From Candidatus Peribacteraceae bacterium (lineage in GTDB: Bacteria; Patescibacteriota; Gracilibacteria; Peribacterales; Peribacteraceae): a stretch of 64,000 bases of DNA. How positions within the stretch are numbered: the first letter of the stretch is position 1; every line of letters starts with the position of its first letter. Location: NCBI GenBank assembly GCA_041666245.1, contig JBAYHG010000003.1, forward strand, positions 15,977-79,976, given 5' to 3'. The notes beneath the pieces are model-generated. The model saw only the letters and a program-made list of their open reading frames with translations. It was not told the origin of the DNA and searched no databases. Shown piece by piece: positions 3,411-27,952 of this stretch. The position numbers were made by a program, and so were the translations under genes.

Positions 3411-3502
<92 letters not shown>

Positions 3503-4000: not shown

Positions 4001-4675
4001 ATGACACCTTTCCTCAACCCTACATTTCTGATCGCGATCCTGATCGCCCTCAGTGTCCACGAGGCGGCGCACGGATGGGTGGCGAACAAGCTTGGAGATC
4101 CCACGGCGGAGGCGGCGGGGCGGGTGACGCTCAATCCACTCGCGCACCTGGATCCCATGGGGACACTCCTCTTCCTCTTCGTCGGCTTCGGCTGGGGCAA
4201 GCCCGTGCCGATCAACCCGATGTACTTCCGGCAGCCCAAGCGCGACACGGCACTCGTGTCGCTCGCGGGGCCGGTGTCCAACTTCCTCGTTGCTGCACTT
4301 TCTTTTGCCCTCCTCACTGCGTTCTTCCCAAGTGTTGTTGGTTCGGCGAACTCGCTCCTCTCCTTCTCCATGAGCGGTTCTATCGCCGCGGCGTTCTTTC
4401 GTTCCGTTCTTCAGAGTCTCCTCTTCATTGACCTCGGGCTCATGGCATTCAATCTGCTGCCCATTGCCCCCCTCGACGGGTCGAAAGTCCTGCAGGCGTT
4501 CGTTCCGCTTCGTTTCGAGGAAGGCTACGAGCGCTACATGCAGTACGGTCCCTACATTCTCATCGGGCTTCTCCTCGCCGAGTCGTTCCTCGGGATTTCG
4601 CTCCTCTCGTCGTGGATCTATTCCATCATCGACGGGGCGCTGCGGATGTTTTCCTTTTTCTTCCTGCGCTCGTGA
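4001..4675 (+). CDS. Site-2 protease family (peptidase M50) membrane metalloprotease
   Basis: MTPFLNPTFLIAILIALSVHEAAHGWVANKLGDPTA..NPLAHLDPMGTL..GWGKPVPINP. It has the HExxH motif in TM1 and further TM helices. The ATG at 4001 is preferred over the GTG at 3983. Confidence 0.85.
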   Translation: MTPFLNPTFLIAILIALSVHEAAHGWVANKLGDPTAEAAGRVTLNPLAHLDPMGTLLFLFVGFGWGKPVPINPMYFRQPKRDTALVSLAGPVSNFLVAALSFALLTAFFPSVVGSANSLLSFSMSGSIAAAFFRSVLQSLLFIDLGLMAFNLLPIAPLDGSKVLQAFVPLRFEEGYERYMQYGPYILIGLLLAESFLGISLLSSWIYSIIDGALRMFSFFFLRS

Positions 4676-4708: not shown

Positions 4709-6403
4709 ATGTCATATGTAGTCTCTTCACCACGAAGTCTTCTCGTGCGCGTCCGGCCCTTGCTCCTTCCCCTCCTCGCAGGATCACTCTTCACGCTTGT
4801 CCTGAATTCCCCGATGATCATATCGAGGATGCACGGGGATCCGGTCCTCCCTGCCATGGGCACGTCGGTGGACGAGGCGTTCTATTTTTCGCTCATCAAC
4901 AATGCCTCGCTCGGTGTCCGCAGAATGGGGAATGTCTCCCTTCTCGAGCACCGGGACAATCCCGACACCGGCTCGTACGCTCCTCTCATTCAGGGCGGAC
5001 TCAAGCGACTCTTCGGATGGGATATCGCGACGGCCGTCTGGTTCGGCGATGTGGTTTTCCCCTTCGTGACGGTCGTGCTCCTCTCACTCGCGTTTGCCTC
5101 GCTCTTTCCTTCCGCTGTCGTCGGAGCGGGAGCGGCACTCCTCGTGTCATCGATCATCGGGACGGGGTTCCTCCGTTCCATCAGTCCGCAGGTGACGCTC
5201 ATCTGGGTCGCGCTGTATCTGTGGGCGTTCCTCGGGTTTCGGCCCGGCAGGGGAGCAGCGATCTTGCGGGGGACTGCGATGGCACTCCTCTTTCTCTCAC
5301 ACTCAGTCACGTTGCCTTTTCTCCTCGGCGTCGAGGGGCTCGCTCTCCTCTTTGACCCGCGCGTGAGCGGTGCGCGGCGCAGGATCATGCTCTTCCTCCT
5401 GGCGCTCCTCCCGCTCGTTCCCGTGTTCGCGCTCAAGCTCGTCATGACCGGAAACGGTGATCCGGTAATCATCGCGGATACGTACAGACGCATGGGCATG
5501 ATTGCGAGTCACCTTCCTGCCGCACCCCTCCTCCAGATGAAGGTGCTGGCTGCGGGGATTGTTCTCCTGTTCCTTCGGCGGTTCGTTCGCGATGAGCGGA
5601 CGCCCGCGACGCTCCTTCTCATCCTTTGCGGGGCGCTCCTCCTCGCACTCAACCAATCGATCGTCCATGGCATCGACATCGTCTTCGGCCTCTACTACGA
5701 GCGCATGGCCCAGCTCGTGCTCCCGCTCGTCGGGGCGTACGTCCTCTTCCATTTTTTGCGAGGCAGATATCGCTTTGCTGCGGGGCTGATCTTCGCTGCT
5801 CTCGGACTCTCTCTCCTCACGGCGCAGGTCATCGTGACCTCCACCTCTCCTCCGAGCAGCACACAGCCGTCCGACGATCCCACAGAGATCCTGACGGCAC
5901 TGGGGCAGCTTCCCGGGGAGCGTGTCGTTCTCGCCCCGTACGAAATCGCGGATCTCGTCCCTGCGTTCACGAGGCATGCCGTCGCATTCAATCACTTCGC
6001 CCATTACCAGTATGCGGGAGACGGGGAACTGGCTCAGCGTTACCTCTTGCACGAGTCATTCTTCCCCATCTCCTCAGGTTCCCGCGATGACACATACCCG
6101 GAGATATTCAGTTATGCGGCGGGGAATATCGCTGCGCGGGAACGCACACTCTGCCGAGGCCTTTCACTCTTCATGAAGTCCGATGCCGCGTGCCGTGTCC
6201 CGATCCGAGACCGCATCGCACATCAAGAACTCCTTCCTCTTCTCGATCATCCTGCCATCGACCAGGCGGCGCTCTTCCAGGCGTTCCATGTGGACACGAT
6301 CGTCACCGATCGCCCCCTTCCTGCGTTCGCCGCGCGTATCTGTTCGCGAGCGGGCGAGGCCGGAGGATTCACGCTTTGGTCGTGCCCGCGGGTTTCCGAA
6401 TGA
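4709..6403 (+). CDS. Polytopic membrane protein with C-terminal soluble domain, GT-C-like (putative)
   Basis: 564 aa with at least 10 hydrophobic helices in the first ~370 aa. The acidic-aromatic motif VDEAFYF lies just after the first helix, as in GT-C glycosyltransferases. The C-terminal ~170 aa are soluble. The function is inferred from architecture only. Confidence 0.6.
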   Translation: MSYVVSSPRSLLVRVRPLLLPLLAGSLFTLVLNSPMIISRMHGDPVLPAMGTSVDEAFYFSLINNASLGVRRMGNVSLLEHRDNPDTGSYAPLIQGGLKRLFGWDIATAVWFGDVVFPFVTVVLLSLAFASLFPSAVVGAGAALLVSSIIGTGFLRSISPQVTLIWVALYLWAFLGFRPGRGAAILRGTAMALLFLSHSVTLPFLLGVEGLALLFDPRVSGARRRIMLFLLALLPLVPVFALKLVMTGNGDPVIIADTYRRMGMIASHLPAAPLLQMKVLAAGIVLLFLRRFVRDERTPATLLLILCGALLLALNQSIVHGIDIVFGLYYERMAQLVLPLVGAYVLFHFLRGRYRFAAGLIFAALGLSLLTAQVIVTSTSPPSSTQPSDDPTEILTALGQLPGERVVLAPYEIADLVPAFTRHAVAFNHFAHYQYAGDGELAQRYLLHESFFPISSGSRDDTYPEIFSYAAGNIAARERTLCRGLSLFMKSDAACRVPIRDRIAHQELLPLLDHPAIDQAALFQAFHVDTIVTDRPLPAFAARICSRAGEAGGFTLWSCPRVSE

Positions 6404-7283: not shown

Positions 7284-7358
7284 TGGAGCCGCCGACGGGG
7301 ATTGAACCCGTGACCCCATCCTTACCATGGATGTGCTCTACCACTGAGCTACGGCGGC
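7284..7358 (-). tRNA. tRNA-Thr (anticodon GGT), 3' CCA encoded
   Basis: The reverse complement GCCGCCGTAGCTCAGTGGTAGAGCACATCCATGGTAAGGATGGGGTCACGGGTTCAATCCCCGTCGGCGGCTCCA folds into a cloverleaf: D arm GCTC-AGTGGTA-GAGC, anticodon stem CATCC/GGATG with loop ATGGTAA, T arm ACGGG-TTCAATC-CCCGT. Confidence 0.93.
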
Positions 7359-7826: not shown

Positions 7827-7869
7827 GGAGAAGTGAGAAAGGGCAGAGAAGGCAGAGAGGGCAGGAAGG
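7827..7869. repeat. Purine-rich 9-nt periodic tract (AGAAAGGGC AGAGAAGGC AGAGAGGGC AGGAAGG)
   Basis: It fills the sufS-sufU spacer and shares the exact 21-mer AGAAAGGGCAGAGAAGGCAGA with 17478..17518. Confidence 0.6.
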
Positions 7870-9185: not shown

Positions 9186-12011
9186 ATGCAGAAGAAAACC
9201 ATCCAGATTCTCTCCCTGATCCTCTTCGTTTGTCTCCTCCTTTGGGGGGGATTCGCGCTCCTCTCGTACCTCGGGATTCCCGTGCACGGGGTTGTCCTCC
9301 TCAATGAGGCCGCACAGAAGCAGGCGGAGACGGCATGCGCATCCGATGGGTTTTTCTGCAGAGGCCTCGCGGCGCTCCTGCCTTCCATCAGCCACTTGAT
9401 CAGTCGATCGGCACCGTTCTTCGGATACGCGTTCGTGTGCATGCTCCTCTGGCTCCTCTTCGCAGGTTGGCGTTTGCTCGTGACGGGAGAGGGCAGGGTG
9501 AGGATCTCCTGGCGGCCTATCTACTTCCCTCTTCTCTTCCTCGGTCTTGTTTGGGTGCTCTTCACCACACTCTCCGCGGGGTCCCAGGATGGCATGCCTG
9601 TGCGACAGATCGTGGAGCCGACGAGCCAGGCATACGGTTCGCTTAGCGGTAACCAGCTCCAGGCGCTCAAGACTAATTTCGATCAGCTTCAAAAGAAGGG
9701 CTGCCTCGTCGTGGCAGGCCAGGCCAGGGAGGGGATCAATGTGTACTGGATGCGCAATTCGTGCATTCAAAGTGCGTTCATGACGACCGCGTTGCCGCAG
9801 TTCCTTCTCGTGTGTGTCCTCCTTTTCGAGCTCCTCGTTCTCGGACGGTTCCTGCTCCGTCTCCTCGGAGTTCGAACGCGCACATTCGTGGAAGAGATTG
9901 CGCTCAGCGCCGGGATCGGGGCCGGAGGCTGGATCGCGTTGCTCTGGACTCTCGCTGTCGTCGGTCTCTATGTACAGCTGGCCGGCTGGCTCCTCGCCGT
10001 TCTCATTCCAATTGTCTGTTGCAAGGACGCACTCGCCTGGGCTCGTCGCTTCCTTCAGCCTTCCCCTTTCGAGTGCTCCTGGCGTTCGGTGCAGCTCTTC
10101 TTCGGCTGGCTGCTCTTCAGCTACCTCGCGCTCAATTTTCTCACGGTCATCCGCCCCTTCCCCATCGGTTGGGATGATCTGGGCAGCTACATCAATCGGC
10201 CGCGCCTGCTCGTGAGCTACGGGCACTTCATTTTCCCGATGTCGTCATTCCAGTGGGAGTACATCACGTCGGTGGGTTTCCTCCTCTTCGGTTACGACAG
10301 TCTCTTCGCAGCAACGGCCGCGATGGTCATCAATTGGACGGAAGGTCTCCTGGCGATTCTTGCAGTCTTCCTCTTCGGGCGGACGTTCCTCGGCAGCGGT
10401 CGTGGTCTGCTCTCCGCGCTCCTCTACTACACGCTTCCTATTGTCGGTCACTTCTCCTTTGCGGACATGAAGATCGACAACGCCGTGTTCATGAGCGGGG
10501 CATTGGCTGTTTTCTGCGTGTTCGTTGCGCTCTTTCCTCCCGAAGAAAGCGAGACACCTCTCCCCGAAGCGGCAGGATGGAGACGGTATCTTCCGTTGCG
10601 TTGGCAGTGGATTGTTCTCGGCGGATTGCTTGCTGGTCTCTCTTTTGGGATGAAGGCCACGGCGGCGATGGTCATCCTGGCCATCCTTGCGATGCTCCTT
10701 GGTGTTGCACATCTCTCCGCCGCGTTCGCCGGCGTCCTCTTCACGATCTATGTTTTTGTCACTCAAGGTGCTCTCAACCTCGGAGATGTAGCGACGCGAA
10801 TCGCAGGGGGGACGATGCTTGTTTCCCGGTCTTTCGTGATGGCGATTCTCGGTTTCATCATTGTGCTCCTCATGGGCTGGGCACTCCGGCGGCGACCTCT
10901 TGCAGTGGTTCGTTCCTTCGTGATGACCGCTCTCTTCCTCTGTGGCGTCGGTCTCGCCGTCGCCCCCTGGCTGCTTCACAACAATCTGCTCGCAGGCAAC
11001 GTCGTACCCCACCTCCTCCTCACGGCACCCAATAATTTCACGCCCCAAATGGACTTCCGCAACTTCGGTATCCGAGGGGCGCCGGGGCAGGACGTGCGCA
11101 CGCTCCCCGCCGAGTTGCAGCTGGATCCCAAGAACGCCGCCTGCGGTTCCACGGCCGGATCCGAGGAGCTCGACCGGTACTGGGGATTCGGCAAGGGTTG
11201 GAGCCACTACCTCACACTTCCCTGGCGCACGGTGATGAACCTCGATGCCCCCGGGTACTACGTGACGACCATGCCGGGACTCCTCATCTTCCCGCTTCTC
11301 CTCCTCCTGCCTTTCTTCTGGATGAAGCGTGGGCGTTGGTTGCGCTGGCTCTTCCTCGTCACGTCCGTCCTCATCGTCGAGTGGATGTTCCTCGCCAACG
11401 GCATTCCCTGGTACGGCATCGGCATGTTCCTCGGACTCGTCGTCGGTCTGGAGGCATTCATCGTCCATGCGCCGGATACACTCAATAAGACGCTGGCCGG
11501 AATTCTCATCGCATCCTCGCTCATGATCTGCTTCGCGATGCGTTTCTGGCAATTCGATCAGCAGCGCAACCTCCTCGAGTACCCCATGGGCAAGATCTCC
11601 GCGGACACGCTGCGGATCCGGACGATTCCCTACTACGATCAGATACGAGCATCGGTCATGGAGCGCAACACATTCATGCCTGACCGGCCGTACCTGTATC
11701 GCGTGGGGACGTTCATTCCCTACTTCATCCCGCGGAATCTGGAGGTCATTGGGATAACGGATCACCAGCTGGATGCATTCAATTGTCTGAATCAGGAACG
11801 CAACCCCGAGCTCACACTCAAGCGTCTGAAGGCGTTGGGATTCAACAGCATCGTCTTCGACACGAATACCGCGACGATCGAGCAGGACCCCAATGGCTCA
11901 CTTCACAAGAAGGTGCAGGAGTTTGCGAATTTCCTCAACACGCCCTCGCTCGGGCTGCAGATCGTCGTCAACGATCCTCCGCAGGGGGTGGCATTCATCC
12001 TCATTCCCTGA
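9186..12011 (+). CDS. Very large polytopic membrane protein with C-terminal soluble domain (putative GT-C-like glycosyltransferase)
   Basis: About 941 aa from the ATG at 9186 (MQKKTIQILSLILFVCLLLWGG). It has at least 16 hydrophobic segments and a soluble C-terminal ~130 aa. A GT2 + DUF2304-like pair lies downstream. The track start at 9129 is a TTG. The function is inferred from architecture and context only. Confidence 0.6.
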   Translation: MQKKTIQILSLILFVCLLLWGGFALLSYLGIPVHGVVLLNEAAQKQAETACASDGFFCRGLAALLPSISHLISRSAPFFGYAFVCMLLWLLFAGWRLLVTGEGRVRISWRPIYFPLLFLGLVWVLFTTLSAGSQDGMPVRQIVEPTSQAYGSLSGNQLQALKTNFDQLQKKGCLVVAGQAREGINVYWMRNSCIQSAFMTTALPQFLLVCVLLFELLVLGRFLLRLLGVRTRTFVEEIALSAGIGAGGWIALLWTLAVVGLYVQLAGWLLAVLIPIVCCKDALAWARRFLQPSPFECSWRSVQLFFGWLLFSYLALNFLTVIRPFPIGWDDLGSYINRPRLLVSYGHFIFPMSSFQWEYITSVGFLLFGYDSLFAATAAMVINWTEGLLAILAVFLFGRTFLGSGRGLLSALLYYTLPIVGHFSFADMKIDNAVFMSGALAVFCVFVALFPPEESETPLPEAAGWRRYLPLRWQWIVLGGLLAGLSFGMKATAAMVILAILAMLLGVAHLSAAFAGVLFTIYVFVTQGALNLGDVATRIAGGTMLVSRSFVMAILGFIIVLLMGWALRRRPLAVVRSFVMTALFLCGVGLAVAPWLLHNNLLAGNVVPHLLLTAPNNFTPQMDFRNFGIRGAPGQDVRTLPAELQLDPKNAACGSTAGSEELDRYWGFGKGWSHYLTLPWRTVMNLDAPGYYVTTMPGLLIFPLLLLLPFFWMKRGRWLRWLFLVTSVLIVEWMFLANGIPWYGIGMFLGLVVGLEAFIVHAPDTLNKTLAGILIASSLMICFAMRFWQFDQQRNLLEYPMGKISADTLRIRTIPYYDQIRASVMERNTFMPDRPYLYRVGTFIPYFIPRNLEVIGITDHQLDAFNCLNQERNPELTLKRLKALGFNSIVFDTNTATIEQDPNGSLHKKVQEFANFLNTPSLGLQIVVNDPPQGVAFILIP

Positions 12012-12024
12012 TCGCAGGGAAGCT

Positions 12025-12086
12025 CCAAATCCCAAGGAACCAAATCCCAAGAACGATTGGGTTTTGGGGCTTGGGGTTTGGGGTTT
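12025..12086 (+). terminator. Long hairpin of AAATCCCAAG-type units (terminator-like; no clear U-tract)
   Basis: CCAAATCCCAAGGAACCAAATCCCAAG..ACGA..TTGGGTTTTGGGGCTTGGGGTTTGGGG lies 14 nt after the stop of 9186..12011. The arms pair with G-U wobbles. It is homologous to 20827..20918. Confidence 0.5.
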
Positions 12087-12117
12087 CGATGTTCGGATTG
12101 TGCTACCCTATTTTCCA

Positions 12118-14403: not shown

Positions 14404-14620
14404 TTCCTTCCCCTACTTTCTCTGTCTGCCCGACAGAGAAAGTAGCAAAGAGAGCGCACCACGCGCCAAGGCTCCTCCGCCCGGCCCGGTACCTCCTCAC
14501 CGGCTCCTCCAAGGTTTCGGAGCCGTCTCGTCGGTATGTGCTGCGGCACCGGGCCTTCCCCTTCACCCCCCGTGGCGCGCGGGGCCTCGCCTGTATGTTG
14601 TTTGATGTTTGTTTTTGTAG
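14404..14620 (+). repeat. Structured intergenic repeat, copy A (full length)
   Basis: It aligns by eye with 24411..24615 and 27795..27885. It has a perfect 14-bp hairpin at 14413..14445, a second hairpin CCGGCTCC..GGAGCCG, a ~63-nt block nearly identical to copy B, and a T/G-rich tail ending at the start of the next gene. Confidence 0.8.
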
Positions 14621-14626
14621 GTGTGT

Positions 14627-16404: not shown

Positions 16405-16441
16405 GAGTTGGGGGTGTGACTACTATAGCTTCTTATGACAG

Positions 16442-16526
16442 AGGTGAGGAAGGTAAGGAAGGGTAGGAAGGTTTGTTTCATTGGGATTTTCTGCCGTTCC
16501 TTACGTTCCTGCCCTTCCTGCTTTCC
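16442..16526. repeat. Imperfect hairpin of 9-nt (T/G)NAGGAAGG units in a divergent promoter region
   Basis: The left arm is GAGGTGAGGAAGGTAAGGAAGGGTAGGAAGG, the loop is ~22 nt, and the right arm is CCGTTCCTTACGTTCCTGCCCTTCCTGCTTTCC. It lies between the starts of rmlA (16404, -) and rmlB (16546, +). Confidence 0.6.
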
Positions 16527-16545
16527 ATGCGCTACCATAGTCCGC

Positions 16546-17493
16546 ATGAACCTCTTGGTTACAGGTGCCGCAGGCTTCATCGGATCGCACTTCGTACTGC
16601 GGCACGTGGAGAAGTATCCGGACGATACCATCGTGGTGCTGGACAAGCTGACGTACGCGGCGGACAAGAAGCTGCTTGATCCGGTGATGAAGCGCATCCG
16701 TTTCATCGAGGGAGACATCGCGGATGTGGTCCTCGTTTCGCAGCTGATCAAGCGGTACGGCATCGAGACGATCGTGAATTTCGCAGCGGAGACGCACGTC
16801 GACCGTTCGATCAAAGACGCCGTTCCTTTCCTGCACACGAATGTCATCGGGGTGCAGGCGCTCATCGAGGTGTGCAAAGCTTTTCCGGACGTACTCCTCT
16901 TCCACATTTCCACTGATGAGGTCTACGGCGATCTGAAGGACGGGGAGCGCCCCAGGCGTCCCGAGGATCCGCTCTCACCGAGCTCGCCTTACTCCGCCAC
17001 GAAAGCGTCCGGAGATTTGTTGCTCCTTGCCGCCGTTCGCACCTTCGGCATCCACGTCCGCATCGCGCGTTGCACCAATAACTTTGGCCCGCACCAGGCA
17101 TCGGAGAAATTCATCCCGACCGTCATCCGGACCGCCATGGCCGACAAACCAGTTCCGATCTACGCGAAGGGGAAGAACAAACGAGATTGGCTCTTCGTCA
17201 CGGATCACTGCGATGCGTTGGAGATGGTGCTCCATGCCGATGGCGTTGATGGGAAGATCTTCAATATTTCCGCTGATGACGAGCAGGAGAATGTGACGGT
17301 GGCGAACATGATTCTCTCCATTCTCAAGAAGCCGGAGAGTTTGCTCTCCTTCGTTCCGGACCGTCCCGGCCACGACTGGCGCTACGCGCTCGATTCATCC
17401 CTGGTTCGCAGTATGGGATGGAAACCTTCCGTGACGTTCCGGGAGGGGCTGGAGAAGACGGTTGCTTGGTATGTTCAGAAGGCAGGGAGGTAA
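16546..17493 (+). CDS. rmlB: dTDP-glucose 4,6-dehydratase
   Basis: MNLLVTGAAGFIGSHFV..VVLDKLTYAA..FIEGDI..VNFAAETHVDRS..ISTDEVYG..SPYSATKASGDLL..RCTNNFGPHQ..EKFIP.. shows the GxxGxxG, TDEVYG and YxxxK motifs. The ATG at 16546 was confirmed. Confidence 0.9.
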   Translation: MNLLVTGAAGFIGSHFVLRHVEKYPDDTIVVLDKLTYAADKKLLDPVMKRIRFIEGDIADVVLVSQLIKRYGIETIVNFAAETHVDRSIKDAVPFLHTNVIGVQALIEVCKAFPDVLLFHISTDEVYGDLKDGERPRRPEDPLSPSSPYSATKASGDLLLLAAVRTFGIHVRIARCTNNFGPHQASEKFIPTVIRTAMADKPVPIYAKGKNKRDWLFVTDHCDALEMVLHADGVDGKIFNISADDEQENVTVANMILSILKKPESLLSFVPDRPGHDWRYALDSSLVRSMGWKPSVTFREGLEKTVAWYVQKAGR

Positions 17494-17518
17494 GAAAGGG
17501 CAGAGAAGGCAGAAAGGA
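17478..17518. repeat. Purine-rich 9-nt periodic tract overlapping the rmlB stop
   Basis: GAAGGCAGGGAGGTAAGAAAGGGCAGAGAAGGCAGAAAGGA contains the same 21-mer as 7827..7869. Confidence 0.6.
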
Positions 17519-17611
17519 TTTCCAGAGGTGCGTTATGGAATTTCGAGAGTCCCGGAGGCAAGAAAGTGCGCTATCATTGGGGGGTGAAGATTGTCTTGGC
17601 CACCCGTCTTC

Positions 17612-17650
17612 GCTCCTTCGGAGCTACGCCGGGCAGGCCGGGATAGCTCC
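17612..17650 (+). promoter_or_regulatory. Nested stem-loops in the 5' leader of the GT4 operon (REP-like sequence)
   Basis: GCTCC-TTC-GGAGC lies at 17612..17624. GGAGCTA..(CCGG-GCAGG-CCGG)..TAGCTCC lies at 17620..17650 and ends 9 nt before the ATG at 17660. Confidence 0.45.
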
Positions 17651-19839: not shown

Positions 19840-20828
19840 GACTTCTCTTCATTACGCAGAAATTGCACGGCCAAGATTCGTTTGGGATTCATTGGGTACG
19901 GGAGTTCCGTCGGCAGGGATTCGACGTCACCGTTCTCTGTCTGGAGGATCTCGTCTCGCCGCTGGAATTTCCGGTGCTCTCTCTGGGCAAAGAGATCGGG
20001 ATCGGCAAGGTGGGGCAAGTTATCCGTTTCTTCCGTCACATCGTCACCGCGCGCTACGACCGCGTCTTCATTCACATGAGTCCCGTGTGGGGTCTGCTCG
20101 GCGCATGGTGGTGGGTGCCGTGCAGGATTCCCGTGTATTTGTGGTACACACACTACAAGAATTCGTGCTCCTTCCGCGTGACGGCGTCCTTCGCGAAGCG
20201 GCTCTTCTGCGCCACGTCCCAGAGCATGCCGACCTATGAAGGATCGCCGAAAAAAGTCGTCTGCGGCCATGGGATCGATCTCTCCGTGTGGCCCAAACGG
20301 GAGAATAAGTCAGAGGATCCGCGTTCGCTCGTCGCCGTTCATCGACTCTCCCGCTCGAAGCGCGTTGAGCTCCTGCTTCGGGCTCTCACGCTGCTCCCCG
20401 GGTACCGGCTGGATATCTTCGGGATCGCGGCGGAGCCCGATTACGTCGCGGAACTCAAAGCTCTCACGAAGGAACTCGGCCTCGACCGCCGCGCAGCTTT
20501 CCACGGAACCGTTCCCTTGCACCTGCTCCCGCAGGTTTACTCGATGCATCGCCTCATTCTCAATGAAGCGTCCGAGACCATCGACAAAACGATGCTGGAG
20601 GCCATGACGTGCGGCTGCTATCCGGTGACGACGAAGCGCAATGCTGAGGCCATCGGCATTCCATTCGCTCCGGAGGAGGACACGCCTGAAGCCATCGCAG
20701 CGTTTGTGACGGAGCATGCGGAACGATTGCCGATGAATCCCGAGGAAATGTACAACGTCGTGAAAGAGCGCCACAGTCTCGAGGGACTCGTGAGGAAGAT
20801 GGGGGAGTACATACGGTCGGGGACGTAA
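19836..20828 (+). CDS. GT1/GT4-like glycosyltransferase (divergent)
   Basis: MRLLFITQKLHGQDSFGIHWVREF..VAVHRLSRSKRVELLL..ILNEASETIDKTMLEAMTCGCYPVTT... It has a GT-B C-domain motif. The start overlaps the previous stop (ATGA). Confidence 0.7.
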   Translation: MRLLFITQKLHGQDSFGIHWVREFRRQGFDVTVLCLEDLVSPLEFPVLSLGKEIGIGKVGQVIRFFRHIVTARYDRVFIHMSPVWGLLGAWWWVPCRIPVYLWYTHYKNSCSFRVTASFAKRLFCATSQSMPTYEGSPKKVVCGHGIDLSVWPKRENKSEDPRSLVAVHRLSRSKRVELLLRALTLLPGYRLDIFGIAAEPDYVAELKALTKELGLDRRAAFHGTVPLHLLPQVYSMHRLILNEASETIDKTMLEAMTCGCYPVTTKRNAEAIGIPFAPEEDTPEAIAAFVTEHAERLPMNPEEMYNVVKERHSLEGLVRKMGEYIRSGT

Positions 20829-20918
20829 ATCCCAAGTGCCAAGGAGTCAAATCCCAAGGACGAGTTGGGGATAAGCGCTCATTTGAAAATCGATTGGGAT
20901 TTGGGGCCTTGGGATTTT
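20827..20918. terminator. Long hairpin of AAATCCCAAG-type units between convergent genes (bidirectional terminator candidate)
   Basis: The left arm is AAATCCCAAGTGCCAAGGAGTCAAATCCCAAGG and the right arm is ATTGGGATTTGGGGCCTTGGGATTTT. It uses the same unit family as 12025..12086. Confidence 0.5.
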
Positions 20919-20923
20919 AGTGC

Positions 20924-23562: not shown

Positions 23563-24374
23563 CCGCACCGCGGAGCATTCCCTGTTCGGTCCTCGTCCTC
23601 ACGCGCAACTCCGCCGCGACGATCGGGCGGTGTCTGCACAACCTCGCGCCTTTCGGCGAAATCCTCGTTCACGATGCCAACAGCACGGACGACACGCAGG
23701 CGATCGCGAAGAGCTTCGGCGCGAAGATTCTCAAGCAGGAGGACACCGATGAACCGGCGGTCCGCATCAAGAATTTCACCGATATGCGCTTCAAACAGCG
23801 TGATGCCGCCGCGTTTGACTGGGTGCTCTACCTCGATTCCGACGAAGAACTCAGCGATGGGCTGGTGGAGGAGATCGGTCGCATCCTTCCTCATGCGGAC
23901 GTGAAGACGATCGTGAAAGTGCGCAGGCTTCCTGTCATTGATGGTCGTGTGAGGAAGTACGGGTTGCGCACGCCGGAGATCGTTCCGCGCATCCACCACC
24001 GTCGGAGCGGTTGCACGTTCAAGACCGGCAAAGTCGTCCACGAAAAGTATGTCTACGACGAGTCCTTTACCGAGGTGCTCTGCAAGGAGCCACTCCTTTT
24101 CCCACTGCCCGCGTTTTCAGATCTGCTCGCGAAGGACGACGGCTACGTTGCGATGGACACTGCGAAGAGGCGAGAGGCGGGAATCCGTTTCGGCTGGTAT
24201 CTGCGCTGGGTTCTTCTCCGGGAACCGCTCCTCCTTCTGTCGCTCCTTTTCCGGATGGTGGTGCGTTTGCCTCTGTACCTGCGCCGCGACAGCGTTCCCT
24301 TCGCCTATGACTGGCGGTATGTCCGCTACCACTGGAAACTTCTCAAGGCGATGACGACGGCAATGTTTGCGTGA
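23559..24374 (+). CDS. GT2 family glycosyltransferase
   Basis: ..CSVLVLTRNSAATIGRCL..ILVHDANSTDDT..WVLYLDSDEEL.. shows the DxD motif. There is a C-terminal amphipathic/hydrophobic segment. The start overlaps the previous stop (ATGA). Confidence 0.75.
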   Translation: MTAPRSIPCSVLVLTRNSAATIGRCLHNLAPFGEILVHDANSTDDTQAIAKSFGAKILKQEDTDEPAVRIKNFTDMRFKQRDAAAFDWVLYLDSDEELSDGLVEEIGRILPHADVKTIVKVRRLPVIDGRVRKYGLRTPEIVPRIHHRRSGCTFKTGKVVHEKYVYDESFTEVLCKEPLLFPLPAFSDLLAKDDGYVAMDTAKRREAGIRFGWYLRWVLLREPLLLLSLLFRMVVRLPLYLRRDSVPFAYDWRYVRYHWKLLKAMTTAMFA

Positions 24375-24410: not shown

Positions 24411-24615
24411 TTGTTCTTCCACCTTTTTCCATGCGAAAAAGGTGGAGCCAAAAGCGCGGGCGCTCCAAGCACCTCTCCGCCCGGCCCCGCGCCTCCTCGC
24501 CGTCTCCTTCCGGGCCGTACGGAGCCGGCTCGTCGGCGATGTGCTGCGGCACGGGGCCTTCCCCTTCACCCCCCGTGGAGCGCCACCCCTCCTGTTATTG
24601 TTCAGTGTATTTGTT
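24411..24615 (+). repeat. Structured intergenic repeat, copy B (full length) between convergent genes
   Basis: It has an 11-bp hairpin CCACCTTTTTC-CATGC-GAAAAAGGTGG at 24419..24445. It then follows the same order of blocks as copy A, including the near-identical ~63-nt block GGAGCCGGCTCGTCGGCGATGTGCTGCGGCACGGGGCCTTCCCCTTCACCCCCCGTGGAGCGC. Confidence 0.8.
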
Positions 24616-25548
24616 TTACGCGAGTATTTCCCCCTCCTTCCATCCCGTTTGGAATTCTCCGGGCGTCACGGGAACTCCATCCTGTCCCGCGAAGCCCGTG
24701 ATGGCCAGTGCGCCGTCGAGCGTCGCGACGAGGATTTCCTTGTCTGTGCATTGGATGATGGTGCCTGGTTCCAGCTGTGGCCGAAGCAGTCGCCGTTCCG
24801 TTCGTGCCACAGGAAGTGCTTGCCCCTCTCGTCCTGTTTCCGCGAATTGGAGCGGCGGGAAGGCGAAGGCGCGGATCCAGTGGAAGAGAATTTCCGTCGG
24901 ACGATGCCAATCGATGCGCCGTTTCTTGAAATCAATCGCGCGCATGCCGTAGTACGTCGCGCGATCGGGATCCTGCGGGGTGCGGGCGTTCGTTCGTGTG
25001 AGGATCGCGGGGAGCGTCTCCTCGAAGAGGATCGCCCCTTCCTCGATGCACTGTTCGAAGAGGTTGCGTGCGTTGAACGAGAGCGGGATCGGGAAGAAGC
25101 GCTGCGCGATGATGTCGCCGGTATCGATGCCATCATCGATGTAGTGGAGCGTCACGCCCATCTCCCGCTCGCCATTCAGGACCGCCCAGGCGATGGGAGA
25201 GCAGCCGCGGTAGCGGGGGAGGGGGGCGAAGTGCAGGTTGATCGTGCCATTCTTCGCTGCGGAGTGGATCGGCTGGCGGAGAATCTCGTAGTACTGGAAG
25301 GAGAAGATGAAATCGAGATGTTGCTCCCGGAGCCATTGGATGGATGCGGGAGTATTGAGCTTGTCCCGGCGAACGGGCCAGCCCAGTTCCTTCGCATGGT
25401 GAAACACCGACCCGCGCCATCCGCCCGAGCCATCATCGTCGAAATCCGGCACGACGCTGATCACATCGACTTTTCCCGCGAGGAGGTCCATGCACCGTAT
25501 GGCGATCTTCCCTTTGCCGCAGATGAGGACTCTCGGCAGCGGAGCCAT
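24616..25548 (-). CDS. Formyltransferase (Fmt/ArnA-N/sugar N-formyltransferase family)
   Basis: MAPLPRVLICGKGKIAIRC..FIFSFQYYEIL..TINLHFAPLPRYRGCSPIAWAVLNGEREMGVTLHYIDDGIDTGDII.. shows the N-LH-x-x-LP-x-x-RG and D-x-G-D signature. The ATG at 25548 was confirmed, 2 nt after the upstream stop. Confidence 0.85.
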   Translation of the reverse strand: MAPLPRVLICGKGKIAIRCMDLLAGKVDVISVVPDFDDDGSGGWRGSVFHHAKELGWPVRRDKLNTPASIQWLREQHLDFIFSFQYYEILRQPIHSAAKNGTINLHFAPLPRYRGCSPIAWAVLNGEREMGVTLHYIDDGIDTGDIIAQRFFPIPLSFNARNLFEQCIEEGAILFEETLPAILTRTNARTPQDPDRATYYGMRAIDFKKRRIDWHRPTEILFHWIRAFAFPPLQFAETGREGQALPVARTERRLLRPQLEPGTIIQCTDKEILVATLDGALAITGFAGQDGVPVTPGEFQTGWKEGEILA

Positions 25549-26625: not shown

Positions 26626-27792
26626 ATGCGCATTGCCTACTGCACCAACGTCCGGCTCCCGAGCGAGCGCGCCCACGGGCACCAGATCGCGCACGTGTGC
26701 GATGCACTCGTCCGGCTCGGACACTCCGTCACGATTTTCGCACCGTTTCGACGGAATCCCGTCTCCACCGATTACACGACGTACTACGGAGCCCGACCGG
26801 AGGTGAAGCTCTGTCTCCTCGGTTCCTTCGATGCCATCAACCGCTGGTTCCTCCCCGGCGTTCTCGGTCTTTGGGTTCTCAATGTGTTGTTTCGGGGGAA
26901 TCTCCGGCGGGAGCTGACCACGGAACGGTTCGATGTCCTCTACACGCGCAGTCCGGCGTTGCTTTCCTCACTGCTCAAGACCTCCATTCCGGTCATCCTC
27001 GAATTGCATCAGCTGCCGCGGCGGGGGAGAGGGGGATTCATTTCTCTCTGCAAGCGATGTGCGATCGTCTCGTGCCTCACATCCGTCATGCGGGACGAAT
27101 TGCTCGCTGCAGGCGTTCCTCCGAACCTCGTTGTTGCGGAGGGGGATGCCGTGGACGAAGCGTGGCTCTCCACAGCCTTCGACCGGGAAGCTTCGCGGGC
27201 GAAGTGGGAGATCGAAAAGGAAAGATTCGTTCTTGGGTATGCCGGGTCGCTCTCCACGTTCGGTCTTCCGAAAGGAGCGGATCAGATCGTGCATGCAGTC
27301 GCTCTCCTCCGTCATCGGGGTGTCCCTGCAACCGCGCTCATTGCGGGAGGCCCGCCGGCTGCGGAAGCTGTTCTCCGAGAGACAGCTGATGCACTCGGAG
27401 TGGTCTCCTTCATTCGGTTCCTCGGACAACTGCCGCGCTCCGATGTTCCATCCGTTCTTGCCGCCTCGGATGTCCTCGTCTACCCGGCACCGGCATCCCG
27501 GCATCCCTACTTCCTTCGCGACACGTCGCCCCTGAAGATTTTCGAGTACATGGCCGCCTCACGTCCAATCGTTGCGGCGGACCTGCCGCCACTGCGGGAA
27601 ATTCTGCATGATTCGATGGCGCTCTTCTACACGCCGGGCAATGTCGAAACGCTCGCCGCCGCGGTCCATTCCGTTCAGAAAGATCCCTCCGGGGCCGTCC
27701 GCCGTGCCGCCGCCGCCCGCACGTTCGTTTCCGGTCGAACGTGGACGGAACGCATGCGGAGGATCTTTGCCGCTGCTAGGCTTCAATCATGA
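26626..27792 (+). CDS. GT4 family glycosyltransferase
   Basis: MRIAYCTNVRLPSERAHGHQIAHVCDAL..LGYAGSLSTFGLPKGAD..SPLKIFEYMAASRPIVAADLPPLREIL... The ATG at 26626 was confirmed. Confidence 0.8.
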   Translation: MRIAYCTNVRLPSERAHGHQIAHVCDALVRLGHSVTIFAPFRRNPVSTDYTTYYGARPEVKLCLLGSFDAINRWFLPGVLGLWVLNVLFRGNLRRELTTERFDVLYTRSPALLSSLLKTSIPVILELHQLPRRGRGGFISLCKRCAIVSCLTSVMRDELLAAGVPPNLVVAEGDAVDEAWLSTAFDREASRAKWEIEKERFVLGYAGSLSTFGLPKGADQIVHAVALLRHRGVPATALIAGGPPAAEAVLRETADALGVVSFIRFLGQLPRSDVPSVLAASDVLVYPAPASRHPYFLRDTSPLKIFEYMAASRPIVAADLPPLREILHDSMALFYTPGNVETLAAAVHSVQKDPSGAVRRAAAARTFVSGRTWTERMRRIFAAARLQS

Positions 27793-27794
27793 CA

Positions 27795-27885
27795 TTCTTC
27801 ATCCACCTTTTTCCGGCGAAAAAGGTGGAGCCAAAAGCGCCAGCCCGCCAAGCGCCCCTCCACCCGGCACCGCGCCTCCTCCCCG
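27795..27885 (+). repeat. Structured intergenic repeat, copy C (5' half only)
   Basis: It has the hairpin CCACCTTTTTC-CGGC-GAAAAAGGTGG at 27803..27828, followed by AGCCAAAAGCGC..CCAAGCGCCCCTCCACCCGGCACCGCGCCTCCTCCCC as in copy B. The 3' conserved block is absent. Confidence 0.7.
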
Positions 27886-27952
27886 GATATTTCCTGAGAC
27901 GGATGTATTCGACGTTACGCGCACGAGAGTATTGTTCCCGTCTGCTGTTTGT

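What the first reader, a model, noticed from the sequence alone, without database searches (positions are those of the whole stretch)
14404..14620. Structured ~200-nt intergenic repeat family (copy A) whose first hairpin keeps its structure but not its sequence
There are three same-orientation copies, at 14404..14620, 24411..24615 and 27795..27885. They share an order of blocks: a T/C-rich lead-in, a perfect hairpin, AGC(C)AAA(A)G(A)GCGC, a GC-rich tract (..CTCCGCCCGGCCC..), and a second hairpin (CCGnCTCC / GGAGCCG). Copies A and B then share a ~63-nt block with only about five differences by eye (GGAGCCG.CTCGTCGG..ATGTGCTGCGGCAC.GGGCCTTCCCCTTCACCCCCCGTGG.GCGC), followed by a T/G-rich tail. 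Hairpin 1 is 14 bp in A (CTACTTTCTCTGTC/GACAGAGAAAGTAG) but 11 bp of unrelated sequence in B and C (CCACCTTTTTC/GAAAAAGGTGG), at the same position. That is the signature of selection on structure. No U-tract follows it, so it is not a canonical terminator. The substitutions between copies do not look codon-like. I recognise no Rfam family or IS end.
Basis: seen in the sequence. Interest (0 to 1): 0.7.

Follow-up and report, generated by a model that had tools for sequence, protein, structure and literature searches.

The report
Structured mobile intergenic repeat of Peribacteria
The three look-alike intergenic stretches are real copies of a previously undescribed, roughly 190-base, five-helix folded repeat that is scattered through the small genomes of Peribacteria (candidate phyla radiation bacteria), moves between sites over evolutionary time, and always points the same way relative to DNA replication; its function and its means of copying are not yet known.

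Summary
Copies A (14404-14626) and B (24411-24619) are full-length. Copy C (27795-27886) is a truncated 5' half. No further copy lies in the window.

The family is not in Rfam 15, the plasmid or phage collections, or IMG/VR. Twenty-three distinct full copies, plus short and truncated forms, occur only in Peribacteraceae/Peregrinibacteria genomes and metagenomes.

The shared architecture is a Y-tract, hairpin P1, an A-rich linker, a long-range helix P2 enclosing P5a/P5b, hairpin P3 and a variable hairpin P4. Invariant C-rich joining strands separate the helices, and many copies end in a T/G-rich tail.

- **Structure:** 94.8% of helix cells pair and 21 of 37 pairs show double-sided changes.
- **No cis role:** orientation relative to neighbouring genes is random, and I found no conserved promoter or terminator. 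G-U is not favoured over A-C.
- **Replication bias:** orientation follows the T>A/G>C strand in 16 of 19 independent loci.
- **Mobility:** sites filled in some species are empty in others that carry the family elsewhere. Paralogues within one genome reach 94% identity, and assemblies break at copies.

Best reading (0.45): a non-autonomous, replication-oriented mobile repeat whose fold is needed for copying. The main rival is a functional structured RNA.

The parts
14404..14412 (+). Copy A: T/C-rich lead-in (TTCCTTCCC). Similarity between paralogues starts only 4-8 nt before P1.
14413..14445 (+). Copy A: hairpin P1, type 3 (CTACTTTCTCTGTC / loop TGCCC / GACAGAGAAAGTAG; 14 bp). The same P1 occurs in L044.
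14446..14459 (+). Copy A: purine-rich linker CAAAGAGAGCGCAC.
14460..14467 (+). Copy A: P2 5' strand (CACGCGCC). It pairs with 14574-14581.
14468..14482 (+). Copy A: conserved unpaired strand J2/5 (AAGGCTCCTCCGCCC).
14483..14493 (+). Copy A: P5a 5' strand GGCCCGG (pairs with 14549-14555) followed by P5b 5' strand TACC (pairs with 14533-14536).
14501..14525 (+). Copy A: hairpin P3 (CGGCTCC / loop TCCAAGGTTTC / GGAGCCG). It is flanked by the conserved strands TCCTCAC (14494-14500) and TCTCGTC (14526-14532).
14537..14549 (+). Copy A: short variable hairpin P4 (GTGC TGCG GCAC). P4 differs in sequence and length in every lineage.
14549..14555 (+). Copy A: P5a 3' strand CCGGGCC.
14556..14573 (+). Copy A: conserved unpaired strand J5/2 (TTCCCCTTCACCCCCCGT), the most invariant block of the family.
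14574..14591 (+). Copy A: P2 3' strand GGCGCGCG followed by the 3' end of the core, GGGCCTCGCC.
14592..14626 (+). Copy A: T/G-rich tail, running up to the ATG (14627) of the next glycosyltransferase gene.
24411..24592 (+). Copy B, full core. P1 is type 1 (24419-24429 / 24435-24445). P2 is GGCGCTCC (24459-24466) paired with GGAGCGCC (24577-24584). The core ends in ACCCCTCC. It lies between convergent genes: GT2 (stop at 24374) and a formyltransferase on the - strand (stop at 24616).
24593..24619 (+). Copy B: T/G-rich tail.
27795..27886 (+). Copy C, truncated 5' half. It keeps the lead-in, P1 (27803-27813 / 27818-27828), the linker, a degenerate P2 5' strand, J2/5, the P5 5' strand and TCCTCCCCGG. 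Everything from P3 onward is missing. It starts 3 nt after the stop codon (27790-27792) of a GT4 gene.

Best explanation
The three stretches belong to a Peribacteria-specific family of non-autonomous, mobile (or copy-converting) intergenic repeats. I call the family here a five-helix, C-rich, replication-oriented repeat.

The unit is about 190 nt, plus a T/G-rich tail in the Peribacter-type genomes. It folds as a single strand into P1 followed by a P2-closed domain containing P5a, P5b, P3 and P4.

My inference is that this fold, together with the invariant C-rich joining strands, is what an unidentified host or element enzyme recognises when the unit is copied or recombined, and that this happens on DNA exposed as a single strand at the replication fork. 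That would explain three things:
- helices are kept by strictly Watson-Crick compensation;
- orientation is locked to the replication strand and not to genes;
- copies appear, disappear, truncate, nest and homogenise within a genome.

In this window the copies are passengers in the spacers of a large glycan-synthesis cluster. At most they add transcript-end or insulator structure.

Shown: family membership, the fold, the orientation bias, insertion polymorphism and concerted evolution. Inferred: the single-stranded DNA intermediate, the enzyme, and any effect on neighbouring genes.
For: - **Restricted multi-copy family.** 16 genome loci and about 10 metagenome loci, all from Peribacteraceae/Peregrinibacteria. 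There are at least 6 copies in MAG STF1_123, 3 in this 64-kb window, 3 within 1.7 kb in L044 and 2 within 4.2 kb in Ca. P. riflensis (L069/L084).
- **Insertion polymorphism, SDR|ACD spacer.** Filled in L003, L069/L084, L054 and L088. Empty (85-110 nt) in L085, L089 and L091. Occupied by a different palindrome in L090.
- **Insertion polymorphism, tRNA-methyltransferase|SPOUT spacer.** 318 nt with a copy in L084. Only 23-30 nt and empty in L085, L089 and L090. The genomes with empty sites carry the family elsewhere: L023, and L006/L015.
- **Within-genome copying or homogenisation.** Paralogues are 94% identical in STF1_123. L003 is closer to its paralogue L029 (89%) than to its orthologues (78-87%) and shares P3 and P4 with it. 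Two subfamilies only 69% identical coexist in the window's genome.
- **Decay products.** Truncated copy C; short forms lacking P5/P3/P4 (L044); orphan half-P1 arms directly upstream of full copies (L044, L015); a remnant 3' part in L088; secondary insertions of a small palindrome inside copies.
- **Assembly breaks.** Assemblies break at copies. The L082 contig runs exactly from inside A to inside B.
- **No gene-linked orientation.** All four gene-orientation configurations occur. No conserved promoter lies in the repeated unit, and no promoter-like site was found. At SDR|ACD the copy sits between two divergent promoters.
- **Replication-linked orientation.** Copies on one contig always share orientation (7 of 7 agreements). 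The given strand lies on the T>A (mostly also G>C) strand in 20 of 23 loci, or 16 of 19 independent loci (one-sided binomial 0.002). Gene-strand bias does not explain this: 74.7 kb against 66.5 kb outside the window.
- **Wobble.** G-U (19) is no commoner than A-C (15) in helices.
Against: - No transposase, integrase or reverse transcriptase lies next to any copy whose neighbours were annotated.
- There are no terminal inverted repeats and no recognisable target-site duplication.
- The most conserved parts are unpaired strands, and the fold is an elaborate three-way junction. That is more typical of a functional RNA than of a transposase substrate.
- At orthologous sites the core (78-87% identity) is far better kept than the flanking spacer (52-68%) and about as well as the flanking genes (73-82%). 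This means either purifying selection at each site or frequent gene conversion.
- The identification of the T>A/G>C strand with the leading strand is inferred from general knowledge. It was not checked against a mapped origin.
Confidence: 0.45

Rival explanations
1. It is a functional structured non-coding RNA class that happens to be multi-copy. It could be a trans-acting small RNA or protein-sponge RNA whose C-rich loops (CCUCCU, CCCCUUCACCCCCC) bind a protein or G-rich/Shine-Dalgarno-like targets. Alternatively it could be a cis-acting transcript-end or insulator element (P1 plus C-rich Rho-loading loops plus a U/G-rich tail). Its co-orientation with replication would then reflect high expression.
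For: - Covariation is strong in five helices: 94.8% of cells paired, 21 of 37 pairs with double-sided changes, 0 of 500 shuffles reach the observed values, and slid controls pair at 38-51%.
- Unpaired strands are invariant across genera, and a variable-length P4 sits at a fixed position.
- The core is conserved above the flanking spacer at orthologous sites.
- Ten copies begin within about 0-60 nt of the stop codon of a co-oriented upstream gene.
- Highly expressed RNA genes are typically co-oriented with replication (general knowledge).
Against: - No conserved promoter or terminator belongs to the unit.
- About half the copies are antisense to, or upstream of the promoters of, their neighbours.
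- G-U is not enriched over A-C.
- Truncated and short copies persist.
- Sites are gained and lost between species.
- There is no Rfam relative.
Confidence: 0.27
2. It is a DNA-level site used by the cell: a folded single-strand or cruciform recognised in a polar, replication-linked process. Candidates are a recombination site that bounds exchangeable gene modules or cassettes, a priming or fork-related signal, or a chromosome-organising site.
For: - Orientation is locked to the replication strand.
- Helices are strictly Watson-Crick.
- Arrangements look like cassettes. In L044 the order is element-gene-element-gene-element with one small gene per interval. In the window, A, B and C delimit 10-kb and 3.4-kb blocks of a variable glycan cluster. 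In L088 two extra genes sit where relatives have a copy.
Against: - No integrase or recombinase was found in the window or beside the copies.
- The ends lack attC-type core sites.
- No case was found of the same module in different contexts. L083 is co-linear with the window.
- Copy density, at tens per genome, is too low for a general replication signal.
Confidence: 0.13
3. It is an RNA-mediated retro-element: a SINE-like or ribozyme-like mobile RNA. The + strand RNA with its U/G-rich 3' tail would be reverse-transcribed into the lagging-strand template at forks, as shown for retrotransposition of group II introns.
For: - The fold is RNA-like, and the 3' tail is a simple sequence whose composition is kept but whose sequence is not. 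The tail arrives with the element, since it is absent from empty sites.
- The replication-strand bias is in the sense reported for group II intron retrotransposition (general knowledge).
Against: - No reverse transcriptase gene was seen in any annotated neighbourhood.
- There is no group II intron domain V/VI match in Rfam.
- The tail is missing in several genomes whose copies are nevertheless young (STF1_123).
- G-U is not enriched.
Confidence: 0.07

Closest known systems
Pneumococcal BOX elements and enterobacterial ERIC/IRU elements (structured interspersed intergenic repeats)
   Same: Size of 100-250 nt. Tens of copies or more. Strictly intergenic, in either orientation to genes. Modular, with outer pairing segments enclosing optional inner modules (compare the L044 short forms). 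A stable predicted fold and no coding capacity. No adjacent transposase.
   Different: No sequence similarity. This fold is a three-way junction with invariant C-rich single strands, not a simple long imperfect palindrome. Orientation is tied to the replication strand. The host range is a CPR lineage with genomes of about 1-1.4 Mb.
IS200/IS605-derived PATEs and REP/RAYT elements (single-strand DNA, HUH/Y1-transposase substrates)
   Same: A hairpin at the very left end. No terminal inverted repeats or obvious target duplication. A constant short T-rich sequence immediately 5' of the left hairpin. An orientation bias of the kind expected for transposition into the lagging-strand template. Watson-Crick-only helices.
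   Different: No TnpA or RAYT gene was found here. The whole 190 nt, not just two subterminal hairpins, is conserved and structured. No defined right-end hairpin sits next to the 3' boundary.
Integron attC sites and chromosomal cassette arrays (for example Vibrio VCRs)
   Same: Structure is conserved more than sequence in one arm. Copies are co-oriented between genes. Folded single-strand substrates with replication-strand effects. The L044 array looks cassette-like.
   Different: There are no R''/R' core sites (RYYYAAC / GTTRRRY). The fold is not a single bulged hairpin. Long blocks of sequence are invariant. No IntI gene was found, and the genes between copies are in both orientations.
Orphan structured RNA motifs found by comparative genomics (Breaker/Weinberg-type candidate ncRNAs)
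   Same: A GC-rich intergenic motif with multi-helix covariation and conserved junction nucleotides, of unknown function and restricted to one lineage.
   Different: Many copies per genome with presence/absence polymorphism. No consistent gene association, promoter or terminator. No G-U enrichment.

Membership tests
Any Rfam 15 family | Covariance-model score at or above the gathering threshold | tested here: not met
   Only two tRNAs in the window reach the gathering threshold. The best hits over copies A and L001 at E<=10 are 9.7-15.4 bits, against thresholds of 35-91.
Intrinsic (Rho-independent) terminator | A GC-rich hairpin immediately followed by a U-tract | tested here: not met
   P1 is followed by AGCCAAAA or CAAAGAG on the + strand and by GGAAAAGAA on the - strand. 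The consensus scan finds only marginal sites, at the rate seen in shuffles. The T/G-rich tail lies more than 130 nt after P1 and 8-10 nt after P2.
Riboswitch / 5' leader | A consistent position upstream of, and co-oriented with, genes of a regulon | tested here: not met
   About half the copies face the 3' end of the next gene or are antisense to both neighbours. Copy B lies between convergent genes.
Independent sRNA gene | Its own promoter and terminator conserved with the unit | tested here: not met
   Similarity between paralogues starts 4-8 nt before P1, the upstream sequences are unrelated, and no promoter-like site was found. Transcription itself could not be tested.
MITE | Terminal inverted repeats | tested here: not met
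   The ends are (T)TTTCCACC... and ...CCACCCCTCC. They are not reverse complements.
MITE | Target-site duplication | tested here: inconclusive
   Filled and empty sites are too diverged to define the junctions.
MITE | Short, non-coding, multi-copy, with presence/absence at orthologous sites | tested here: met
IS200/IS605 PATE or REP/RAYT | Subterminal hairpins at both ends | tested here: inconclusive
   P1 sits at the left end. No hairpin is adjacent to the 3' boundary, except that P2 acts as a hairpin in the short forms.
IS200/IS605 PATE or REP/RAYT | Orientation bias with replication | tested here: met
   16 of 19 independent loci, and 7 of 7 same-contig agreements.
IS200/IS605 PATE or REP/RAYT | A cognate Y1/HUH transposase gene in the genome | not tested
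   Only neighbourhoods were annotated, and none has such a domain. Whole genomes were not available.
Integron attC | Inverse core and core sites (RYYYAAC ... GTTRRRY) at the ends of a single bulged hairpin of 57-141 nt | tested here: not met
   By inspection of the alignments. The fold is branched.
Integron attC | An associated IntI integrase | tested here: not met
   No integrase domain in any ORF scanned in the window or loci. Genome-wide absence was not tested.
Group II intron or derivative | Domain V/VI catalytic core | tested here: not met
   No Intron_gpII match even at E<=10. The unit is only about 190 nt.
TnpB/IscB omega-RNA | Overlaps or abuts a tnpB/iscB gene | tested here: not met
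   The neighbours are glycosyltransferases, a formyltransferase, an epimerase, SDR, ACD, methyltransferases and the like.
BOX/ERIC-type structured interspersed repeat (a descriptive class) | Intergenic, multi-copy, non-coding, with a stable conserved fold, modular variants and no adjacent mobility gene | tested here: met
   There is no sequence relationship to BOX or ERIC: nothing in Rfam and no match to copy A in the plasmid collection.

The most novel reading that the evidence does not exclude
The element is the substrate, or the RNA/DNA component, of a mobility or recombination system not yet described. It would operate in CPR bacteria on folded single strands at the replication fork, without a recognisable transposase. 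Alternatively, it is a new catalytic or protein-recruiting ncRNA class that propagates itself. The invariant C-rich junction strands would then be the active or recognition site.
Probability: 0.15. Interest if true: 0.85.

Novelty: new variant of a known kind. Interest (0 to 1): 0.6.

Why it matters
Candidate phyla radiation bacteria have tiny genomes with short spacers and are thought to carry few mobile elements and few known non-coding RNAs. A 190-nt element that is kept in tens of copies is therefore either an unusually successful selfish element with an unknown copying mechanism or an unrecognised functional nucleic acid. It is conserved across genera with textbook covariation, and it is oriented with replication rather than with genes.

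In practice it breaks metagenome assemblies and inflates 'intergenic' length in these genomes. The model built here could be used to flag copies. It also gives a concrete, testable case for asking whether structural covariation in a repeat reflects RNA function or single-strand DNA recognition.

Tried and rejected
- **Rfam:** gathering thresholds on the whole window, and E<=10 on two copies. Nothing.
- **BLAST:** plasmid (copy A) and phage (the L001 copy) collections, distant mode. No match.
- **IMG/VR:** two pattern scans, with the covariance model run on the 9 hits. No copy.
- **Coding reading:** frames differ between copies because of indels, and P4 length is not a multiple of 3. Rejected.
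- **Terminator or promoter reading:** consensus scans give nothing above the shuffle rate.
- **Strand assignment from wobble pairs:** G-U 19 against A-C 15, so uninformative.
- **Strand assignment from folding energy:** the G-rich complement always folds better (mean -91.0 against -76.3 kcal/mol). That is expected from composition alone, so I did not use it.
- **Conserved partner gene:** the neighbours are ordinary metabolic and envelope genes.
- **Target-site duplication:** I looked at filled against empty sites. The junctions are too diverged.
- **Extra divergent copies:** the covariance model search over 30 sources found only reverse-strand echoes of the palindromic P1 and two weak, probably spurious hits (L086 13834-13918; L024 521-696).
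- **Literature:** nothing describes the element. The Ca. Peribacter riflensis genome paper (PMC4736985) mentions only origin-proximal short repeats and one assembly-relevant direct repeat.
- **One failed look-up:** window:40622-41884 is not on record, probably because the start codon was called differently.
Full report

Yes.

- A 28-nt degenerate pattern common to them (CTCCRCCCGGCNCNGNNCCTCCTCNCCG) matches only these three places in 64 kb, even with 3 mismatches allowed. None is expected in shuffles.
- A and B share an identical 25-nt block, and B and C share an identical 23-nt block. The repeat finder recovers the same pairs.
- Hairpin 1 is 14 bp in A and 11 bp of different sequence in B and C, at the same position. 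It dominates the predicted fold of each copy.
- Copy C is only a 5' half. A profile built from the family matches it over positions 9-106 of 215, and it stops where the second hairpin should begin.
- Neither an exhaustive nhmmer run nor the covariance model finds any further copy in the window.

**2. Where the window comes from, and what surrounds the copies.**

The protein after copy A is encoded identically on a 1.03-Mb contig of an ENA groundwater assembly (ERZ27249449 k141_181977). The window lies at about 144.4-208.4 kb of that contig.

Pfam annotation shows that roughly 12-62 kb of the window is one very large glycan-synthesis cluster. It contains GT2 and GT4 glycosyltransferases, DegT aminotransferases, epimerases/dehydratases, acetyl- and formyltransferases, a flippase, YfhO and asparagine synthase. 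No ORF scanned has a transposase, integrase or reverse-transcriptase domain.

- Copy A fills the 245-nt spacer between two co-directional GT4 genes.
- Copy B fills the spacer between a GT2 gene and a convergent formyltransferase gene.
- Copy C starts 3 nt after the stop codon of a GT4 gene and precedes a UDP-GlcNAc 2-epimerase-like gene.
- A short-read contig of the same strain (L082) begins inside A and ends inside B. That is the classic signature of a repeat that breaks assemblies.

**3. The family outside the window.**

Scanning one genome per GTDB species with the 28-nt pattern gave 29 loci. Sixteen are in Candidatus Peribacteraceae/Peregrinibacteria MAGs and carry the whole architecture. 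The other 13 (Nocardioides, Longimicrobiales and others) are chance matches inside genes, with nothing else in common.

The metagenome scan added copies on Peribacteria-like contigs, including two copies 4.2 kb apart on a 1,248,112-bp contig. That length matches the published Ca. Peribacter riflensis genomes (1,248,071 +/- 217 bp; PMC4736985).

In all I collected 23 distinct full copies, plus truncated and short forms. Rfam has no relative, even at E<=10. The plasmid and phage collections and IMG/VR have none either. Two literature searches found no description.

**4. Anatomy.**

The consensus runs as follows:

- a short T-rich lead-in;
- P1, a pyrimidine-arm/purine-arm hairpin;
- an A-rich linker (AGCCAAAACGC);
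- the 5' strand of P2 (GGCGCGCC);
- J2/5 (AAnnCCCCTCCGCCC);
- the 5' strands of P5a (GGCCCYG) and P5b (TGCC);
- TCCTCGC;
- hairpin P3 (CGGCTCC, loop TCCAAGGnTTC, GGAGCCG);
- TCTCGTC;
- the P5b 3' strand (GGCA);
- P4, a hairpin whose sequence and length differ in every lineage and which is nearly absent in some;
- the P5a 3' strand (CRGGGCC);
- J5/2 (TTCCCCTTCACCCCCCGT);
- the P2 3' strand;
- ACCCCTCC.

P1 comes in at least three sequence types:

| Type | 5' arm | Seen in |
|---|---|---|
| 1 | CCACCTTTGTC | most copies; B and C carry the close variant CCACCTTTTTC |
| 2 | C(T)CTTTCTTT(T)GTC | L021, L023, L025, L044 short forms |
| 3 | CTACTTTCTCTGTC | copy A and L044; L058 has a close variant |

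In the Peribacter-type genomes, including this window, a 35-75-nt T/G-rich, A/C-poor tail follows the core. Its composition is conserved, but its sequence cannot be aligned between paralogues.

RNAalifold independently predicts P1, P2, P5 and P3, with 23 of 42 pairs showing compensatory changes.

I then counted pairs on my explicit 37-pair structure over the 23 copies:

| Measure | Observed | Control |
|---|---|---|
| Cells forming a standard pair | 94.8% | 84.8 +/- 0.6% in column shuffles; 0 of 500 reach the observed value |
| Pairs with changes on both sides | 21 of 37 (72 cells) | shuffles average 10.3 pairs and 15.9 cells |
| Pairing when the 3' partner is slid by 1-3 columns | - | 38-51% |

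Every helix has pairs with double-sided changes. For example, P2 is GGCGCGCC/GGCGCGCC in most copies, CCGCCGCC/GGCGGCGG in four, GGCGCTCC/GGAGCGCC in copy B and GGCGCGTC/GACGCGCC in L015. The fold is therefore real and under selection somewhere in the family's history.

**5. What it is not.**

- **Not coding.** Indels shift the frames between copies, and P4 length is arbitrary.
- **Not an intrinsic terminator.** P1 has a T-rich 5' flank and an A-rich 3' flank on both strands, which is the reverse of a terminator. Scans find nothing beyond the shuffle rate.
- **Not a gene-linked cis-regulator.** Among independent loci the upstream gene is co-oriented in about 10 and opposed in about 7-10. The downstream gene is co-oriented in about 8 and opposed in about 7-10. 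All four configurations occur.
- **Not obviously an autonomous sRNA gene.** Similarity between paralogues begins only 4-8 nt before P1, and the upstream sequences are unrelated. At the SDR|ACD locus the copy sits between two divergent promoters. The ACD and SPOUT genes carry TACAAT or TAGAAT 6-8 nt before the ATG, which is a leaderless-type arrangement, so the copy lies upstream of those promoters and not inside those transcripts.

**6. Evidence that it moves or is copied.**

I fetched the ACD (acetate-CoA ligase, ADP-forming) neighbourhood from a graded series of relatives.

| Site | Filled | Empty or other |
|---|---|---|
| SDR\|ACD spacer | L003, L069/L084, L054, L088 | empty (85-110 nt) in L085, L089, L091; a different long palindrome in L090 |
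| tRNA-U5-methyltransferase\|SPOUT spacer | L084 and L069 (318 nt with a copy) | 23-30 nt and empty in L085, L089, L090; remnant 3' part with GT-rich tail plus two extra genes in L088 |

Two of the genomes with empty sites demonstrably carry the family elsewhere. The CG1_02_54_53 lineage has L023, and MEGAHIT-group-1.70 has L006 and L015.

Within genomes, copies are homogenised or recently duplicated:

- Three STF1_123 copies are 94-95% identical.
- L003 shares its P3 and P4 with its paralogue L029, 80 kb away (89% identity), and not with its orthologues (78-87%).
- Two subfamilies only 69% identical (the A type and the B/C type) coexist in the window's genome. A's nearest relative is a copy in another metagenome (L044, 84%).

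Decay and rearrangement products are common:

- the truncated copy C;
- two short forms in L044 that keep P1, P2, the C-rich J5/2 and the tail but lack P5/P3/P4;
- orphan 5' halves of a type-2 P1 immediately upstream of full copies in L044 and L015;
- insertions of a small REP-like palindrome inside copies in L008 and L015, and of related CCTGCC...GGCAGG palindromes inside L021 and L025.

**7. Orientation follows replication, not transcription.**

Whenever two or more copies lie on one contig they have the same orientation. This holds for the window (3 copies), L044 (3), L069 (2), L005/L019 (5.7 kb apart) and L003/L029 (80 kb apart). That is 7 agreements out of 7, p about 0.008.

With the element masked, its given strand lies on the strand with T>A in 20 of 23 loci and with G>C in 20 of 23. 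Counting orthologous loci once gives 16 of 19, one-sided binomial 0.002.

Gene orientation does not explain this. Outside the window, predicted coding bases are 74.7 kb on the element's strand against 66.5 kb on the other. In many loci, genes on both strands show the same sign of AT skew in fixed coordinates. The window itself has T>A along its whole length.

By general knowledge, an excess of G and T marks the leading strand. The element's pyrimidine-rich strand would then have the polarity of the leading strand, which means it lies on the lagging-strand template. I could not check this against a mapped origin.

**8. Which nucleic acid folds?**

Non-Watson-Crick cells are rare. G-U (19) is no commoner than A-C (15). 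After removing a doubtful terminal pair and misaligned P1 variants, A-C is if anything commoner.

A structure selected only in an RNA of one strand would normally tolerate G-U but not A-C. The symmetry here is what one expects for DNA hairpins, for use of both strands, or for wholesale swapping of helices between copies by conversion. Folding energies favour the G-rich complement, but composition alone predicts that. The strand and the chemistry remain open.

**9. Selection or conversion?**

In the orthologous trio L003/L069/L054:

| Region | Identity |
|---|---|
| Element core | 78-87% |
| Adjacent spacer, upstream | 52-68% |
| Adjacent spacer, downstream (tail) | 54-61% |
| Flanking genes | 73-82% |

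P3 and P4 differ between these orthologues by fully compensated changes.

So either each copy is under purifying selection, or copies are repeatedly overwritten from a conserved pool. The paralogue-sharing of P3 and P4 shows that the second process does occur. It does not exclude the first.

**10. Synthesis.**

The best-supported explanation is a lineage-specific, non-autonomous mobile or self-homogenising repeat. Its single-strand fold and invariant C-rich junction strands would be the recognition features for copying, and copying would be coupled to replication (confidence 0.45).

It works like the structured interspersed repeats of other bacteria (BOX, ERIC). In its strand bias, left-end hairpin and lack of inverted repeats it resembles single-strand-DNA elements of the IS200/IS605-PATE or REP type. 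It fails or cannot be tested on the defining features of each of those families, so I do not file it under any of them.

The main rival is a genuine structured ncRNA class that happens to be multi-copy (0.27). A polar DNA site or cassette boundary (0.13) and an RNA-mediated retro-element (0.07) are not excluded.

**11. Verdict.**

The family is new to the databases available here.

It is a new variant of a known kind, namely structured interspersed repeats. Three features are unusual: a five-helix junction with conserved C-rich strands, replication-locked orientation, and occurrence in a CPR lineage. Interest is 0.6. A whole-genome orientation census and strand-specific transcript mapping would decide between the readings.

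Noticed in passing
window 17608-17628 (- strand); also L008 ~343-370 and ~499-533, and L015 (inside copies of the main element): A small REP-like palindromic repeat (CCTGCC..CGTAGCTCCGAAGGAGCGAAG..) occurs in a spacer of the window. It has inserted inside copies of the main element in other genomes. Related CCTGCC...GGCAGG palindromes sit in the P3 loop of L025 and before the P2 3' strand of L021.
   Followed up: partly
window 12024-12090 and 20828-20920: Two long intergenic hairpins built from CCAAATCCCAAGG / CCTTGGGGTTTGG units. This is a second palindromic spacer repeat family within the glycan cluster.
   Followed up: no
window 7830-7869, 16441-16530, 17478-17517: Purine-rich repeats (GAGGTAAGAAAGGGCAGAGAAGG...). 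At 16441-16530 the repeat is paired with a pyrimidine-rich inverted arm, which forms another spacer hairpin family.
   Followed up: no
L090 ~4575-4675; L088 ~5645-5700: Another palindromic element (GCCTCACYCCCTTAYCCCCCTCTCC ... GGAGAGGGGGAAGGGGGGTGAGGC). In L090 it occupies exactly the SDR|ACD spacer where related genomes carry the main element, which suggests a shared insertion hot spot.
   Followed up: partly
L003 ~1370-1400, L084 ~5735-5762, L085 ~9985-10000: The ACD and SPOUT genes have a TACAAT or TAGAAT box 6-8 nt before the ATG, and ACD also has a conserved TGGAAT box 17 nt upstream of it. This looks like leaderless transcription in Peribacteria.
   Followed up: no
L044 5980-7710 (- strand): An array of short form, gene, full copy, gene, short form within 1.7 kb. 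Each interval holds one small opposite-strand gene: a putative secreted protein and a TspO-like membrane protein. The arrangement looks cassette-like.
   Followed up: partly
L084 5444-5510: Just upstream of the copy inserted between the tRNA methyltransferase and SPOUT genes lies a 25-nt stretch (GGTGAGTTTGCTGCAGAGGAAGTAG). It resembles the 3' coding end of the methyltransferase gene of the empty-site relative L085 (19 of 25). The current L084 gene end encodes the same peptide (EAVSLLQRK) with different codons. This may be a footprint of the insertion event.
   Followed up: no
window ~12000-62000: A glycan/envelope polysaccharide gene cluster of 50 kb or more (many GT2/GT4, three DegT aminotransferases, several 4,6-dehydratases/epimerases, C-methyltransferase, FkbM methyltransferase, flippase, YfhO, Asn synthase). 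It is very large for a genome of about 1-1.2 Mb.
   Followed up: partly
window 3416-3502 (-) and 7287-7358 (-): Two tRNA genes, the only Rfam matches in the window.
   Followed up: no
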